A stretch of 64,000 bases of DNA from Candidatus Saccharimonadales bacterium. GTDB taxonomy: Bacteria; Patescibacteriota; Microgenomatia; Levybacterales; UBA12049. Below, piece after piece: positions 1 through 58,615 of this stretch. How positions within the stretch are numbered: position 1 is the first letter of the stretch; the number at the start of each line of letters is the position of its first letter. The position numbers were made by a program, and so were the translations under genes. The DNA is taken from positions 8,143 to 72,142 of the forward strand of contig DATIJS010000057.1 of the NCBI GenBank assembly GCA_035478335.1, written 5' to 3'. A model generated the notes under the pieces. That model had not been told where the DNA came from. It made no database searches and was given only the letters and a program-made list of their open reading frames with translations.

Positions 1-347
1 CTAATTCTGACCCGATGATCATTGATTACCCGATTCCTGCAAATGATGATGCTGTGGGCAGCTTGAAATTGATAATCGGTTATATTTTCGATGCATGGAT
101 AGAGGGTAAAAAAGAGAAATCGGTTGTCGATTTGAAGGAAGCTGCTGAGAAAGAAAAAGAAGATGCGAAGATAGCAGCAGAGAAGGCAAAAGAGGAAGCA
201 AAAGCCAAAAAAACAGATACTACCTGGGCCAAAGAAATGGCAGAGACCGCAGTTTCGGCAAAAAAACCTGAAGTAAAAGAAACTCCAGAGAAGAAAGAAG
301 TAGTTAAAAAAGCTTCAGTTAAGAAAGTTGCTAAAAAGAAAGAGTAA
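1..347 (+). CDS. rpsB: 30S ribosomal protein S2, C-terminal part (gene starts upstream of the window) carrying an unusual ~75-aa Lys/Glu/Ala-rich tail
   Basis: The frame is open from the window edge with no stop before position 15. The block NSDP-IIDYPIPANDDAVGSLKLI matches the conserved S2 C-terminal block (E. coli ...[20 protein letters not shown]...). The gene is followed by tsf in the canonical rpsB-tsf order. Confidence 0.7.
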   Translation, partial: NSDPMIIDYPIPANDDAVGSLKLIIGYIFDAWIEGKKEKSVVDLKEAAEKEKEDAKIAAEKAKEEAKAKKTDTTWAKEMAETAVSAKKPEVKETPEKKEVVKKASVKKVAKKKE

Positions 348-403
348 ATTGTCATTCCCATGAAAATGGGGAATCCATGAATCCGCATTCGCGAGGATGA
401 CAT
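348..403 (+). promoter_or_regulatory. structured TTGTCAT-hairpin-…-ATGACA motif, copy A, in the rpsB-tsf spacer
   Basis: ATTGTCAT + TCCCAT-GAAA-ATGGGGA hairpin + ATCCATG … CGCGAGGATGACA. The 3' arm ATGACA contains the annotated ATG at 397. Confidence 0.4.
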
Positions 404-870
404 TTAATCAAGTTATGGCAAACATAGATCTAAAAACATTAAAAAAACTCAGAGACGAGACGGCCGCATCAATTGCTGACTGTCGTGCTGCTCTGGACGC
501 AACGGGCGGGGATTATAAAAAGGCACTTGAATGGCTTAAAAAAAGAGGAATTGAAAAAGCTGAAAAGAAATCTGGACGCGAGACCGGCGAGGGATTGGTT
601 GAGTCATATATCCATAATGGTGGGAAAATAGGAGTACTAGTAACTCTTCTTTGCGAGACAGATTTTGTCGCAAAAACAGATGAATTTAAGCAACTAGCGC
701 ATGAAATTGCAATGCAAATTTCAGCCATGAACCCAAAAGACACCAAAGAACTCCTAGCACAAGCTTACATAAGGGATGCAGGCATCACAATTGAACAAAT
801 GATCAAGAGCGCAATCGGTAAACTGGGAGAGAATATAACAGTTAAGGAATTCAAAAGGTTTGAGATTTAG
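397..870 (+). CDS. tsf: Elongation factor Ts, short form; the true start is probably the ATG at 415
   Basis: MANIDLKTLKKLRDETAASIADCRAAL aligns residue-for-residue with the EF-Ts N-terminus ([27 protein letters not shown]). A UBA-like N-terminal domain is followed by a dimerisation core. Confidence 0.9.
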   Translation: MTFNQVMANIDLKTLKKLRDETAASIADCRAALDATGGDYKKALEWLKKRGIEKAEKKSGRETGEGLVESYIHNGGKIGVLVTLLCETDFVAKTDEFKQLAHEIAMQISAMNPKDTKELLAQAYIRDAGITIEQMIKSAIGKLGENITVKEFKRFEI

Positions 871-10395: not shown

Positions 10396-10424
10396 TTGAC
10401 AAAATAATTTTAGTTTTATATAAT
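10396..10424 (+). promoter_or_regulatory. perfect consensus sigma-70 type promoter (TTGACA-17 nt-TATAAT)
   Basis: TTGACA at 10396-10401, a 17-nt spacer, then TATAAT at 10419-10424 (an extended TATATAAT). No ORF follows; a structured GC-richer segment and a terminator do. Confidence 0.55.
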
Positions 10425-10430
10425 CAAATC

Positions 10431-10615
10431 ATAAAGCGTTATTAGTTTGGCTTCCTACCAAACGATTCCTTCGGTTAACTCAGGGGAGACGCTGATTGGG
10501 AAAATCTAGTACTAACCAATCCGGGAGGTTCCCGTTACAGAACAAACTTGTGTCGGCCTAGCTGGAGCAAGGATAAGAATAATTTATCTTTGCACACCAA
10601 GTGGTGTGTTTTTTT
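10431..10615 (+). ncRNA. candidate small RNA (~185 nt) of unknown identity; 6S-like size
   Basis: Bounded by the consensus promoter above and an intrinsic terminator (CACACCAAGTGGTGTG plus a T7 run at 10593-10615). It contains several local hairpins (GTTTGG…CCAAAC, GATTGG…CCAATC, CGGGA-GGT-TCCCG, GATAA…TTATC) and is GC-richer than its flanks. There is no start codon or ORF. Confidence 0.45.
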
Positions 10616-10767
10616 ATAGGTAAATTAGAAAAGCAAGGTGGTACCGTGTCAAAATCAAAAGTCAAAGATTAGAAATCAAAAATAATCAAGACAAAAGATT
10701 TTACGCCCTTGTAAGAATATAACTGTAAGTCAGTTGTGTTTTTGCAAGGGATTTTTTGTTTGTTTAA

Positions 10768-10835
10768 ATTGTCATCCCCGCGCAGGCGGGGATCCAGGTG
10801 TTTATCTAGATTCCCGTTTTCACGAGAATGACAAG
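10768..10835 (+). promoter_or_regulatory. structured TTGTCAT-hairpin-…-ATGACAA motif, copy B (copy A is at 348-403)
   Basis: ATTGTCAT + CCCCGC-GCAG-GCGGGG hairpin + ATCCAGG … CGAGAATGACAA. The outer 7-nt arms are reverse complements. A second copy with the same architecture lies at 348-403. Confidence 0.4.
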
Positions 10836-10858
10836 GTAAGTATTTATAATAAATTAAT

Positions 10859-11881
10859 ATGAAAATAATAGATGTTGAAACATTAATAAGCTTAGTAGGT
10901 AAGCACAGTTTGGATCTTTTTTTGAGAGATCTTATTCTAGCGCTGAAAAGGGATTATGGCAGATGGAATCAATTTACCAATATTCCACGGCCTTCTATGC
11001 ATGTAGAGGGTGGTGTTTTGGAATTGATGCCGATTTGTGACAACGAATTGTATTACACCTATAAATACGTAAATGGTCATCCCAAAAATCCTGAAACAGG
11101 TAAAATGACAGTTGTGGCAACAGGACAACTGTCGGAAATCTCAACAGGTTATCCTTTGATGTTCTCTGAAATGACATTACTTACCGCTCTTCGTACTGCG
11201 GCTAATTCTGCTCTGGCAACAGATCTGATGTCAAGAAATGACGCGAAAGTCCTGGCCATTATCGGGACAGGAGCACAGAGCGAATTTCAGGTCCGGGGAG
11301 TCCAATTAGTACGTGATATTCAGGAAGTAAGATATTTTGATATTGATGGGAAAGCAATGGATAAGTTTGAAAAAAATATGAAAAAAACCAATACTAAATT
11401 AGTTCGATGCAAAAGCGCAAAAGAGGCAGTAAAAGACGCAGACATAATTACTATCTGTACAGCGTGCAAAGAACATGTGGATGTGATTAAGAATGCATGG
11501 ATCAAGAAAGGAGTACATATCAACGCGCTAGGGGGAGATACCATCGGAAAAACAGAGTTAGAATTTGATATTTTAAAACGCTCAAGAATAGTTGTTGAGT
11601 ATTTCAATCAGGCTTACATTGAGGGAGAGATTCAAAGATTTAGCAGAAATGAGGCCAAAAATCGTGTATTTGCTGAGATTCATGAATTAGTAACAGGATC
11701 CAAAATTGCAAGGGAGAATGATGAACAAATAACTGTTTTTGATTCAGTGGGAATTGCGCTTGAGGATTATTCAGCGCTCAGATTGGTATACGAATTATCA
11801 GAAAAATACAACATCGGAGAGGAATTGGACATGATTCCAGTTCTCAAAGATTCTAAAGATTTGATATCTGTTCTGACATGA
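10859..11881 (+). CDS. ornithine cyclodeaminase / mu-crystallin family protein
   Basis: OCD-family length with a Rossmann AIIGTGAQS motif. A TATAAT box at 10845-10850 lies 8 nt before the ATG. Confidence 0.75.
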   Translation: MKIIDVETLISLVGKHSLDLFLRDLILALKRDYGRWNQFTNIPRPSMHVEGGVLELMPICDNELYYTYKYVNGHPKNPETGKMTVVATGQLSEISTGYPLMFSEMTLLTALRTAANSALATDLMSRNDAKVLAIIGTGAQSEFQVRGVQLVRDIQEVRYFDIDGKAMDKFEKNMKKTNTKLVRCKSAKEAVKDADIITICTACKEHVDVIKNAWIKKGVHINALGGDTIGKTELEFDILKRSRIVVEYFNQAYIEGEIQRFSRNEAKNRVFAEIHELVTGSKIARENDEQITVFDSVGIALEDYSALRLVYELSEKYNIGEELDMIPVLKDSKDLISVLT

Positions 11882-38163: not shown

Positions 38164-38520
38164 TTAAGCCATCTTGTTAATCATAACAAATAACATTTTC
38201 ATTATCTCATTTAATAGCGATTCTGCTTCCGTAAAGTCAATATGTTTAAATTTTGAAATAGAATTACAAACCAAAATCTGAGTTTCTAGTTCTGCTGCTG
38301 AACCTAAGGCAATTGAAAGAAATTGAATGTATTCTTTTCTGTGTCTCCTTAGATATCCTTCAGCAATATTGCTTGGGATTGAGACAGCTGCTCGTTCAAT
38401 TTGAGATCGTAACCCATATAATTCGTCCTTTGGGAATTTTTCTGTTAGTAAATAAATTAATTTGACAAGCTCCATTGATTTTTGCCAAACAATTAATTCT
38501 TTGTAAGATTTAACTAACAT
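38164..38520 (-). CDS. four-helix-bundle protein of the 23S rRNA intervening-sequence protein family
   Basis: ELIVWQKSMELV…FPKDELYGLRSQIERAAVSIPSNIAEGY…RKEYIQFLSIALGSAAELETQ matches this family along its whole length (~118 aa). Confidence 0.85.
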   Translation of the reverse strand: MLVKSYKELIVWQKSMELVKLIYLLTEKFPKDELYGLRSQIERAAVSIPSNIAEGYLRRHRKEYIQFLSIALGSAAELETQILVCNSISKFKHIDFTEAESLLNEIMKMLFVMINKMA

Positions 38521-57897: not shown

Positions 57898-58287
57898 ATG
57901 GATAATTTCAATAAGTCACTAAATTCTGAGAAGACGATCTTGGTTGCAGATGATAATCGGGATATTCTGGAGTCTATGAAAATCCTGCTTGAAATGGAAG
58001 GATATGATGTCATAACTACGTCTCATGGAGAAGAAATCACAAGTATGCTGCAGCTCAATCCAGATTTGCTGCTGATGGATATTTGGTTAGCAGGAATCGA
58101 CGGGCGCGATGTTTGCCGGCATATTAAATCAAAAAGTGAGACTAGGGGAGTGCCGATTATTATGATTTCAGCAAGTAAAAATATCAAAAGGTCAGCTATG
58201 GATTCAGGCGCAGATGATTTCATCGCAAAGCCTTTTGAGATAGATGATGTTCTTGGTAAGGTAAAAAAGCACTTGTTCTCTAACTAA
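57898..58287 (+). CDS. single-domain response regulator (receiver only)
   Basis: ILVADDNRDILE…LLLMDIWLAGIDGRDV…K receiver motifs. Confidence 0.8.
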   Translation: MDNFNKSLNSEKTILVADDNRDILESMKILLEMEGYDVITTSHGEEITSMLQLNPDLLLMDIWLAGIDGRDVCRHIKSKSETRGVPIIMISASKNIKRSAMDSGADDFIAKPFEIDDVLGKVKKHLFSN

Positions 58288-58615
58288 GCTTTTTTTTGGG
58301 CTTTTTTTTGGGGAGGGGGAGGACGGTAGCTGTGATTTTGATTAGCTCGGACATATATTCTTTGTCATCCCAGAAGTCTCCGGTTATCAGATAATACATC
58401 TTGGATCCTGGGTAGGCAGGTGCTTCAGTGGGTTTGCCCAAAAAGTTCTTTCCCGCTTCAGTTAGTTTGACAAAAAGGTGATCATCACAGACAAAAGCGA
58501 CTACTTTCTCATCGCAGTAGAGAGCATACTCTCCAAACATTGACCGTGACCTGATCACTCCAGCTCCTGAGATCTGTTCTGAAATGTACTCAATTGTTGA
58601 TTTTTTCGTCGCCAT
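58280..58615 (-). CDS. TfoX/Sxy N-terminal domain protein
   Basis: …SMFGEYALYCDEKVVAFVCDDHLFVK… matches the TfoX_N pattern. Confidence 0.65.
   Translation of the reverse strand: MATKKSTIEYISEQISGAGVIRSRSMFGEYALYCDEKVVAFVCDDHLFVKLTEAGKNFLGKPTEAPAYPGSKMYYLITGDFWDDKEYMSELIKITATVLPLPKKKPKKKLS

What the first reader, a model, noticed from the sequence alone, without database searches (positions are those of the whole stretch)
348..403. Repeated structured motif TTGTCAT-[hairpin]-ATCCA(T/G)G-…-CG(C)GAG(A/G)ATGACA immediately upstream of two genes (copy A, rpsB-tsf spacer)
Copy A (348-403) and copy B (10768-10835) share 7-nt outer arms that are reverse complements (TTGTCAT / ATGACAA). Both have an internal GC hairpin directly after the 5' arm (TCCCAT-GAAA-ATGGGGA versus CCCCGC-GCAG-GCGGGG; different sequence, same position, so the change is compensatory). 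Both then have the ATCCA(T/G)G block and a CGnGAGnATGACA 3' end. In copy A the 3' arm contains the ATG annotated at 397 just before tsf. Copy B ends 24 nt before the ornithine cyclodeaminase ATG. A conserved structure placed next to start codons suggests a cis-regulatory RNA, a protein operator or a miniature inverted-repeat insertion.
Basis: seen in the sequence. Interest (0 to 1): 0.6.

Follow-up and report, generated by a model that had tools for sequence, protein, structure and literature searches.

The report
Ssn-type hairpin repeat pairs, not riboregulators
The two look-alike structured motifs are copies of a DNA hairpin repeat already known from many bacterial phyla (the Ssn-related motif, first described as dRS3/NTS in Neisseria), found here in a Saccharimonadales (CPR) genome, and they are not a dedicated regulatory RNA for the neighbouring genes.

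Summary
Copy A (349-403) and copy B (10769-10834) are the only two copies in the window, and they belong to one family.

Each copy is two inverted ~28-nt units, (T)GTCAT + 8-bp stem + 4-nt loop + stem' + ATCCAG, with the GTCAT ends facing outward.

- **Match to the published motif.** Both halves of copy B match the published Ssn-related motif (SRM) pattern exactly. The left half matches the Neisseria NTS at 25 of 28 positions, and two of the three differences form a compensatory pair.
- **Independent model.** A covariance model built only from other genomes ranks the four window half-units as its top four hits (E 3.6e-11, 3e-10, 3e-7, 0.07). Copy A is a decayed copy.
- **Distribution.** The same gene-less pair occurs in at least 118 genome stretches from about 15 phyla, including four Saccharibacteria MAGs. 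Most copies are intergenic, next to unrelated genes, and have no target-site duplication.
- **Associated gene.** In some loci the pair lies beside, or the motifs flank, a ~95-aa GIY-YIG (Ssn-like) gene. The window has no such gene.
- **Orthologous sites.** About 30 Saccharimonadia rpsB-tsf spacers lack the element, so a conserved tsf regulator is not supported.
- **Start codon.** tsf starts at 415, not 397.

Verdict: a new member of a known kind, of low to moderate interest.

The parts
349..403 (.). Copy A: decayed gene-less pair of inverted SRM-like units in the 67-nt rpsB-tsf spacer. It starts 1 nt after the rpsB stop (345-347) and ends 11 nt before the tsf ATG (415).
   Evidence: Identical in a second sample, L003.
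350..378 (+). Copy A left unit: TGTCAT-TCCCATG-AAAA-TGGGGAAT-CCAT. It has a CCCATG stem variant and one extra G.
   Evidence: R1 gives 32.9 bits, E 3e-7. It fails the strict SRM pattern. The same CCCATGAAAATGGG variant occurs in L067, L113 and L044.
375..403 (-). Copy A right unit (read on the minus strand): TGTCATCCTCGCGAATGC-GGATTCATGG. The 3' stem has a deletion, and the C that follows the palindrome is lost.
   Evidence: R1 gives 14.8 bits, E 0.07. ssDNA fold z -0.3. It resembles the right arm of the Saccharibacteria element L128, CCCCGCATTCGCGAGGATGACA.
10769..10834 (.). Copy B: intact gene-less pair of inverted SRM units with an 8-nt spacer (10798-10805). It lies 24 nt upstream of the ornithine cyclodeaminase ATG (10859) and just downstream of a terminator-like hairpin (10706-10750).
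10770..10797 (+). Copy B left unit: TGTCAT CCCCGC GCAG GCGGGG ATCCAG.
   Evidence: Matches the published SRM pattern. 25/28 identical to the Neisseria NTS consensus quoted, with a T7/A22 to C/G compensatory pair. R1 46.0 bits, E 3.6e-11. ssDNA hairpin -9.7 kcal/mol, z -3.97.
10806..10833 (-). Copy B right unit (minus strand): TGTCAT TCTCGT GAAA ACGGGA ATCTAG.
   Evidence: Matches the published SRM pattern. R1 42.9 bits, E 3e-10. z -3.05.
415..870 (+). tsf (EF-Ts, 151 aa). This is context, not part of the element.
10859..11881 (+). Ornithine cyclodeaminase gene. This is context, not part of the element.

Best explanation
Both copies are gene-less inverted pairs of Ssn-related motifs (SRM). This is the hairpin repeat family first described in Neisseria as dRS3 and NTS.

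**The unit.** It is about 28 nt: GTCAT, then an 8-bp stem that starts at the AT, a 4-nt GNRA-like loop, the return stem, then C(C/T)AG. Two units face each other with the GTCAT ends outward. This gives a 55-66-bp palindrome.

**Inferred mechanism.** When the DNA is single-stranded (replication, transformation or repair), each unit folds into its hairpin. A small single-domain GIY-YIG nuclease of the Ssn family recognises it and nicks the strand a few nucleotides 5' of GTCAT. In an inverted pair this puts one cut just outside each end, one on each strand. The pair therefore resembles the SRM-ssn-SRM unit with the gene removed. That is a REP/BIME-like non-autonomous repeat.

**State of the two copies.** Copy B is intact. 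Copy A is an eroded relic.

**Position.** Their closeness to start codons reflects tolerance of insertions in the short intergenic spacers of a compact CPR genome. Any effect on tsf or ornithine cyclodeaminase expression, such as an RNA hairpin in the rpsB-tsf transcript, would be a by-product.

**Shown versus inferred.** Shown here: family membership by sequence and structure, wide distribution, intergenic bias, presence/absence at orthologous sites, and association of the same pair with GIY-YIG genes in other genomes. Inferred: that an Ssn enzyme acts on these two copies in this organism, and that the pairs move.
For: 1. **Published pattern.** HGTCWYN(0-2)YYVSBRHN(0-5)WNVSBRGN(0-2)RNCYNB hits the window exactly twice, on the two halves of copy B. 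0.14 hits are expected.
2. **Functional bases.** Copy B's left unit is 25/28 identical to the NTS CGTCATTCCCGCGMAVGCGGGAATCYRG. It keeps the GTC before the palindrome and the C after it, which are the bases reported as most important for cutting and binding.
3. **Independent model.** Model R1, built only from other genomes, ranks the four window units first.
4. **Distribution.** TTGTCATYCCC-N6-12-GGGRATCC-N15-40-ATGACA has about 0.8 chance hits expected in 596 Gb (my estimate from the number of specified bases). These include Saccharibacteria loci L076, L105, L117 and L128.
5. **Hairpins in the unconstrained halves.** The right halves were constrained only by ATGACA. 110 of 118 form a hairpin of 7 bp or more starting at the AT, against 1.7% of shuffles. 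On the 69 fixed-geometry units, 98.4% of cells pair, with 52 double-change cells against 11 in shuffles (0/500).
6. **Associated genes.** GIY-YIG genes (PF01541, ~81-98 aa) lie near the elements in L009, L100, L115 and L015. In L009 the gene is flanked by inverted SRMs with GTCAT outward. The L100 protein has Y10/Y21/E68, the same spacing as the Y6/Y17/E64 residues mutated in the paper.
7. **Location.** 99 of 127 elements are intergenic although ORFs cover 84% of those loci. Neighbouring gene orientations are mixed.
8. **Orthologous spacers.** The element is in the window, L003, L006 (different stems) and L160. It is absent from L004/L005 (Tsf 85% identical) and about 30 other relatives.
Against: - No Ssn-like or other GIY-YIG gene is in the 64-kb window: tblastn at E<=10 finds nothing, a motif scan finds nothing, and Pfam on the ORFs tested shows housekeeping or unannotated proteins, with no GIY-YIG, transposase or integrase domain (gene tables).
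- The rest of the MAG could not be read, so a cognate enzyme in this organism is unproven.
- None of the 120 best Ssn-like hits carries a Saccharimonadales name.
- Element density in Saccharimonadia is low: 13 hairpin-type GTCAT hits, only about half of them SRM-like, in 470 kb. That is far below the hundreds of copies per genome in Ssn-rich species.
- Copy A does not meet the strict SRM pattern.
- Mobility is not shown. No close empty-site/filled-site pair was found, and an identical Ssn protein on 16 contigs always sits in the same context.
Confidence: 0.8

Rival explanations
1. A dedicated cis-regulatory RNA structure (leader, translational operator or attenuator) controlling tsf and ornithine cyclodeaminase.
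For: Both copies lie within 11-24 nt of a start codon. As RNA in context they fold into long hairpins: A -22.8 kcal/mol (z -2.2) and B -32.3 kcal/mol (z -2.6). Elements occur in the rpsB-tsf spacer of three separate Saccharimonadia lineages (window, L006, L160).
Against: - About 30 orthologous spacers lack it, including the closest relative with a different Tsf sequence (85%).
- The three occupied spacers carry different stem sequences, which suggests independent insertions.
- The same element sits next to unrelated genes in about 15 phyla, in every neighbour orientation.
- The element is strand-symmetric.
- Copy A is eroded.
- No U-tract terminator was called at either copy.
- The hairpin does not include the tsf start codon or an SD at working distance.
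Confidence: 0.05
2. A gene for a small trans-acting RNA of the FtrB (Francisella) or WsnRNA46 (Wolbachia) type.
For: Copy B with its flanks (10748-10857) hits Rfam RF02748 FtrB at 41.5 bits, E 8e-6, and RF02625 WsnRNA46 at 23 bits. FtrB was detected as a 115-nt transcript, and its northern probe contains AGTCATTCCCGCGTAGGCGGGAATCTC, which is an SRM.
Against: The scores are well below the gathering cut-offs (66 and 65.3). The similarity is confined to the shared SRM units. No promoter-terminator pair brackets copy B. Copy A has no Rfam hit. Deleting ftrB gave no growth, stress or virulence phenotype, so those sRNAs may themselves be transcribed repeats.
Confidence: 0.05
3. A REP/BIME-type repeat serviced by a RAYT (IS200/IS605-like Y1 transposase), or a classical MITE of a DDE transposon.
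For: The element has a palindromic hairpin unit, inverted pairs, an intergenic location and no target-site duplication, as REP/BIME elements do.
Against: The unit matches the Ssn motif specifically. The gene found beside such pairs in other genomes is GIY-YIG, not a Y1 transposase. No transposase-like Pfam domain was found in the window ORFs tested or in the gene tables. The MITE reading fails on the absent TSD.
Confidence: 0.05
4. Chance resemblance between two unrelated AT-rich spacers.
For: Copy A alone folds no better than shuffled sequence as ssDNA.
Against: An independent model gives E 3e-7 to 3.6e-11 for three of the four units. The pattern count is 2 against 0.16 expected.
Confidence: 0.01

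Closest known systems
Ssn-related motif (SRM) / Neisseria Transformation Sequence (NTS) with the SsnA GIY-YIG ssDNA nuclease (PMC11893778, Nat Commun 2025)
   Same: It has the same 28-nt unit: GTCAT, an ATTCCCGCG-type stem, a GMAV loop, and a return stem followed by C. Copy B's halves satisfy the authors' SRM search pattern. Small GIY-YIG genes are flanked by the same motif in other genomes fetched here.
   Different: The host is a Saccharimonadales (Patescibacteria/CPR) MAG; the terms Patescibacteria and Saccharibacteria do not occur in that paper's main text. Copy number is low. No ssn gene lies within 64 kb. The copies are tight gene-less inverted pairs rather than solitary motifs or motif-gene-motif units. 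Cleavage was not tested.
dRS3 repeats and neisserial intergenic mosaic elements (NIMEs)
   Same: They share the ATTCCC-N8-GGGAAT-type palindrome core, used as inverted repeats bracketing short intergenic sequence.
   Different: The strict dRS3 pattern is not met: A-left has N9, and the B units read ATCCCC/GGGGAT and ATTCTC/GGGAAT. The spacer between units is 0-8 nt here, against 50-150-bp RS segments in NIMEs. A role as a phage or recombinase target was not examined.
Rfam RF02748 FtrB (Francisella sRNA B) and RF02625 WsnRNA46 (Wolbachia)
   Same: Their consensus sequences contain the same GTCAT-hairpin units in inverted pairs (alignments).
   Different: The hits are below gathering score. There is no evidence here for a discrete transcript. 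These families are probably transcribed SRM pairs rather than a separate kind of RNA.
REP/BIME elements with RAYT transposase-like proteins (enterobacteria, Pseudomonas)
   Same: They share the logic of short hairpin-forming extragenic palindromes, often in inverted pairs, recognised as ssDNA by a small dedicated nuclease, with no target duplication. Possible side effects on mRNA stability are known for REP elements (my own background knowledge, not tested here).
   Different: The motif sequence is different, and the partner enzyme has a different fold (GIY-YIG rather than HUH Y1).

Membership tests
Ssn-related motif (SRM/NTS) | Sequence matches the published degenerate SRM search pattern | tested here: met
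   Both halves of copy B match; these are the only 2 hits in 64 kb, against 0.14 expected. Copy A's halves do not match, although A-left scores 32.9 bits with model R1.
Ssn-related motif (SRM/NTS) | Oriented hairpin: GTC just 5' of a semi-palindrome and a C just 3' of it | tested here: met
   Present in B-left, B-right and A-left. Lost in A-right, which has T after the palindrome.
Ssn-related motif (SRM/NTS) | Stem conserved as structure across copies (covariation) | tested here: met
   98.4% of cells paired, 52 double-change cells against 11 in shuffles, and slid controls at 52% paired or less. 110 of 118 unconstrained halves form the hairpin.
Ssn-related motif (SRM/NTS) | A cd10448-type single-domain GIY-YIG (ssn) gene in the same genome, often flanked by the motif | tested here: inconclusive
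   None in the window. Such genes lie near the same element in L009, L100, L115 and L015. CDD cd10448 itself could not be run.
Ssn-related motif (SRM/NTS) | Genome-wide enrichment over shuffled genomes | not testable with these tools
   Only one 64-kb contig of the MAG is available.
Ssn-related motif (SRM/NTS) | Bound and cut as ssDNA (not dsDNA or RNA) by the cognate Ssn a few nt upstream | not testable with these tools
   This needs a biochemical assay.
Neisseria dRS3 | Exact ATTCCC-N8-GGGAAT | tested here: not met
   A-left is ATTCCC-N9-GGGAAT. The B units have ATCCCC/GGGGAT and ATTCTC/GGGAAT.
Rfam FtrB (RF02748) | Score at or above the gathering threshold (66 bits) | tested here: not met
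   41.5 bits. The gathering-level scan of the window found nothing.
Classical MITE | Terminal inverted repeats plus target-site duplication | tested here: not met
   TIRs are present, but no TSD of 2-8 nt above expectation was found in 127 copies.
Cis-regulatory RNA of tsf / ribosomal-protein operon leader | Conservation at the orthologous position in relatives | tested here: not met
   Absent from L004/L005 and about 30 other Saccharimonadia spacers. Present with unrelated stems in L006 and L160.
Intrinsic terminator | GC-rich hairpin followed by a U-run | tested here: not met
   Neither copy was called. The hairpins are followed by TTTAATCA (A) and AGGTAAGT (B).
REP/BIME with RAYT | Associated Y1 (IS200/IS605-like) transposase gene | tested here: inconclusive
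   No Y1_Tnp domain appears among the window ORFs scanned with Pfam or in the gene tables. The whole genome was not available.

The most novel reading that the evidence does not exclude
Gene-less inverted SRM pairs may be non-autonomous mobile elements that Ssn-type GIY-YIG nucleases excise and re-insert through single-stranded DNA, without target duplication. That would make Ssn the enzyme of a new class of ssDNA transposon that has spread across about 15 phyla, including the CPR. In Saccharimonadia, repeated independent occupation of the rpsB-tsf spacer would then reflect either a target preference or secondary co-option of the hairpin in the operon's mRNA. The competence-linked role shown for SsnA in Neisseria could also matter in Saccharibacteria, if they rely on DNA uptake as I recall from my own background knowledge; a TfoX_N gene is present at 58280-58615.
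Probability: 0.15. Interest if true: 0.65.

Novelty: new member of a known kind. Interest (0 to 1): 0.25.

Why it matters
- **Annotation.** These hairpin pairs, and probably the Rfam 'sRNAs' FtrB and WsnRNA46, should not be read as gene-specific riboregulators.
- **Host range.** The documented range of the Ssn-type repeat now includes Saccharimonadales and many other CPR lineages. The paper that defined the family surveyed RefSeq reference and representative genomes.
- **Unsettled question.** The tight gene-less pair with outward GTCAT ends and no target duplication recurs across phyla. It is the configuration expected if the SRM-ssn-SRM unit is, or once was, a mobile element.
- **This window.** The practical consequence is small. 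One intact and one decayed repeat sit in two spacers, with at most incidental effects on neighbouring genes.

Tried and rejected
1. **More copies in the window.** Simple patterns gave only chance hits in coding sequence. The full-model scan with filters off found no further copy.
2. **Rfam.** The gathering-level scan found nothing. In E-value mode copy A has no meaningful hit.
3. **Cognate nuclease or transposase in the window.** A GIY-YIG motif regex, tblastn with two family members and Pfam on 40 ORFs all found none.
4. **Clean empty site for copy B.** The nearest ornithine cyclodeaminase homologues are only 74% identical, so no comparison was possible.
5. **Mobility of an Ssn gene.** An identical protein on 16 contigs always lies between mraZ and a glycosyltransferase. 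It is one species sampled many times, so the result is uninformative.
6. **Gene tables for the rest of the contig.** Two look-ups failed because the start codons differ from the record.
7. **Supplementary tables of the Ssn paper.** They are not held, so the authors' genome list could not be checked for CPR or Francisella.
8. **Promoter provided by copy B.** The only match (ATGACA-16-TAAATT, 9/12) would start transcription inside the gene, and promoter-like sites are no more frequent than in shuffles. Rejected.
9. **Enrichment in the rpsB-tsf spacer.** Two further occupied spacers among about 37 relatives, against roughly 0.5 expected from the observed density, is not significant (my estimate).

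Full report
**Source.** The window is contig CAYQPB010000001.1 of MAG GCA_964419385.1. Its EF-Ts and ornithine cyclodeaminase are named by NCBI as from Candidatus Saccharimonadales. G+C is 38%.

- Copy A reads ATTGTCATTCCCATGAAAATGGGGAATCCATGAATCCGCATTCGCGAGGATGACAT. It lies between the rpsB stop (345-347) and tsf.
- Copy B reads ATTGTCATCCCCGCGCAGGCGGGGATCCAGGTGTTTATCTAGATTCCCGTTTTCACGAGAATGACAAG. It ends 24 nt before the ornithine cyclodeaminase ATG.
- TGTCAT-N35-65-ATGACA occurs twice, against 0.16 expected.
- Three other TTGTCATYCCC-like sites are in coding sequence, have no hairpin, and are chance.

**Anatomy.**
- Aligning each copy with its own reverse complement shows that it is a palindromic pair.
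- The left half is (T)TGTCAT + stem + loop + stem' + ATCCAG. The right half is the same unit inverted.
'ATCCA(T/G)G' is the unit's 3' tail.
- Copy B's two units are stable ssDNA hairpins (-9.7 and -4.4 kcal/mol; z -3.97 and -3.05).
- Copy A's units fold no better than shuffles (z -0.2 and -0.3). Its right unit has lost a G from the return stem.

**Identity.**
- The unit recalled the Neisseria dRS3 repeat. A literature search led to PMC11893778.
- That paper defines the 28-nt NTS, CGTCATTCCCGCGMAVGCGGGAATCYRG. It also defines a degenerate Ssn-related motif (SRM) pattern.
- It shows that SsnA, a 94-aa single-domain GIY-YIG protein, binds the motif only as ssDNA. SsnA cuts a few nucleotides upstream of the motif.
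- The GTC before the palindrome and the C after it are the most critical bases.
- Copy B's left unit matches the NTS at 25 of 28 positions. Two of the three differences form a compensatory pair (T7/A22 to C/G).
- The authors' SRM pattern hits the window exactly twice, on the two halves of copy B. 0.14 hits are expected.
- Copy A fails the strict pattern.

**Independent statistics.**
- A scan of one representative genome per species used TTGTCATYCCC-N6-12-GGGRATCC-N15-40-ATGACA. I estimate about 0.8 chance hits.
- The right halves of these elements were constrained only by ATGACA. 110 of 118 form a hairpin of 7 bp or more starting at the AT of GTCAT, against 1.7% of shuffles.
- Loops are GNRA-like tetraloops or CTTGA.
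- On 69 fixed-geometry units, 98.4% of cells pair. 52 cells have changes on both sides, against 11 in shuffles (0/500). Slid controls pair at 52% or less.
- Covariance model R1, built from those units and containing nothing from the window, ranks the four window units first. Scores are 46.0, 42.9, 32.9 and 14.8 bits (E 3.6e-11, 3e-10, 3e-7, 0.07). It finds no further copy.
- The similarity therefore survives formal statistics, and the family is real.

**Distribution and context.**
- The hits come from about 15 phyla. At least 23 are CPR loci, four of them Saccharibacteria MAGs (L076, L105, L117, L128).
- Other hits are from Chloroflexota, Planctomycetota, Nitrospirota, Ignavibacteria, Omnitrophota, Alpha-, Beta-, Gamma- and Deltaproteobacteria, Rickettsiaceae, Zixibacteria and others.
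- 99 of 127 elements are intergenic, although ORFs cover 84% of those loci.
- Flanking genes are co-directional in 50 cases, convergent in 16 and divergent in 11.
- There is no target-site duplication and no conserved flank.

**Partner gene.**
- Small GIY-YIG proteins (PF01541) lie next to the elements in L009, L100 (a Patescibacteria MAG), L115 and L015.
- In L009 the gene is bracketed by inverted SRMs with GTCAT outward. In L100 it lies 70 nt from a gene-less pair.
- The L100 protein has more than 7,000 homologues, many named from Patescibacteria.
- Its Y10/Y21/E68 spacing equals the Y6/Y17/E64 residues mutated in SsnA.
- The window has no such gene. Pfam on 40 ORFs, together with the public gene tables, shows no GIY-YIG, transposase or integrase domain; the annotated genes are housekeeping and several ORFs have no Pfam match.

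**Orthologous sites.**
- The public record and the listed homologues (149-154 aa, most 151; the best hit is the identical 151-aa product of 415-870) place the tsf start at 415.
- The rpsB-tsf spacer carries copy A in a second sample (L003, identical).
- L006 (Tsf 83% identical) carries an element with the same termini but different stems (TCTGAGG...). L160 (53%) carries another.
- L004/L005 (85%) have a 35-nt spacer without the element. About 30 further relatives (61-74%) lack it as well.
- This presence/absence pattern, with unrelated stems in the occupied sites, argues for insertion and decay rather than a conserved regulator.
- Density in relatives is low: 13 hairpin-type GTCAT hits, only about half of them SRM-like, in 470 kb.

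**RNA-level readings.**
- In Rfam E-value mode, copy B with its flanks hits FtrB (41.5 bits, gathering score 66) and WsnRNA46 (23 bits).
- The aligned consensus sequences show that these 'sRNAs' contain SRM pairs. The FtrB northern probe contains an SRM, and deleting ftrB gave no phenotype.
- Neither copy is called as a terminator. Copy B supplies no credible promoter.
- In RNA context both copies form long hairpins. Incidental effects on mRNA are therefore possible, but there is no evidence for them.

**Conclusion.** The finding is a pair of Ssn-type hairpin repeat elements, one intact and one decayed, in a CPR genome. They are new members of a known kind. Two things remain unproven: that an Ssn enzyme acts on them in this organism, and that gene-less pairs are mobile.

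Noticed in passing
window 10396-10616: A perfect sigma-70 consensus (TTGACA-17-TATAAT, 12/12) starts 14 nt after the upstream gene ends. About 185 nt further on there is an intrinsic terminator (10592-10609 plus T7). This is a candidate ~185-nt small RNA. It has no Rfam hit at E<1, and its fold is -51 kcal/mol (z -1.7).
   Followed up: partly
window 10706-10750: A long terminator-like hairpin (20 pairs counted, then ATTTTTTGTT) directly abuts the 5' side of copy B. The 476-nt intergenic region upstream of ornithine cyclodeaminase therefore holds a promoter, two terminators and the repeat.
   Followed up: partly
Rfam RF02748 (FtrB) and RF02625 (WsnRNA46); alignments to window 10748-10857: The consensus sequences of these two Rfam sRNA families contain inverted GTCAT-hairpin (SRM) units. 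The families may describe transcribed Ssn-type repeats rather than dedicated sRNA genes.
   Followed up: partly
window 58280-58615 (- strand): This ORF has a TfoX_N domain (competence regulator family). It may be relevant because SsnA modulates natural transformation in Neisseria.
   Followed up: no
window 38164-38520 (- strand); also L204-L210 at about 316-660: A 23S rRNA-intervening-sequence protein (PF05635) gene is in the window. A gene of the same family lies about 2 kb from the Ssn-like gene in the Patescibacteria locus fetched for P0121. No SRM is next to the window copy.
   Followed up: no
L204-L213 (Patescibacteria MAGs), gene at 2501-2797 in L204: The Ssn-like GIY-YIG gene and a glycosyltransferase sit between mraZ and the Methyltransf_5 (rsmH-type) gene, which are normally adjacent (my own background knowledge). 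The arrangement is identical in 10 assemblies.
   Followed up: partly
L049 6341-6491: This locus holds two tandem, near-identical 78-bp copies of an SRM pair, separated by CCGAT. It shows that the pairs can also amplify head to tail.
   Followed up: no
L133, L137, L138, L139, L155, L163 (rpsB-tsf spacers of Saccharimonadia relatives): Many orthologous spacers are filled with AT-rich short tandem or palindromic repeats (for example AAATTAGAAATTAGAAATT and TTTTAAATTGTAATTCTGAATTTTGAATT). These are unrelated to the SRM.
   Followed up: no
window 1-64000: The whole 64 kb contains no tRNA gene and no Rfam family at gathering score. rpsB carries a long Lys/Glu-rich C-terminal tail (window 15-347).
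   Followed up: no
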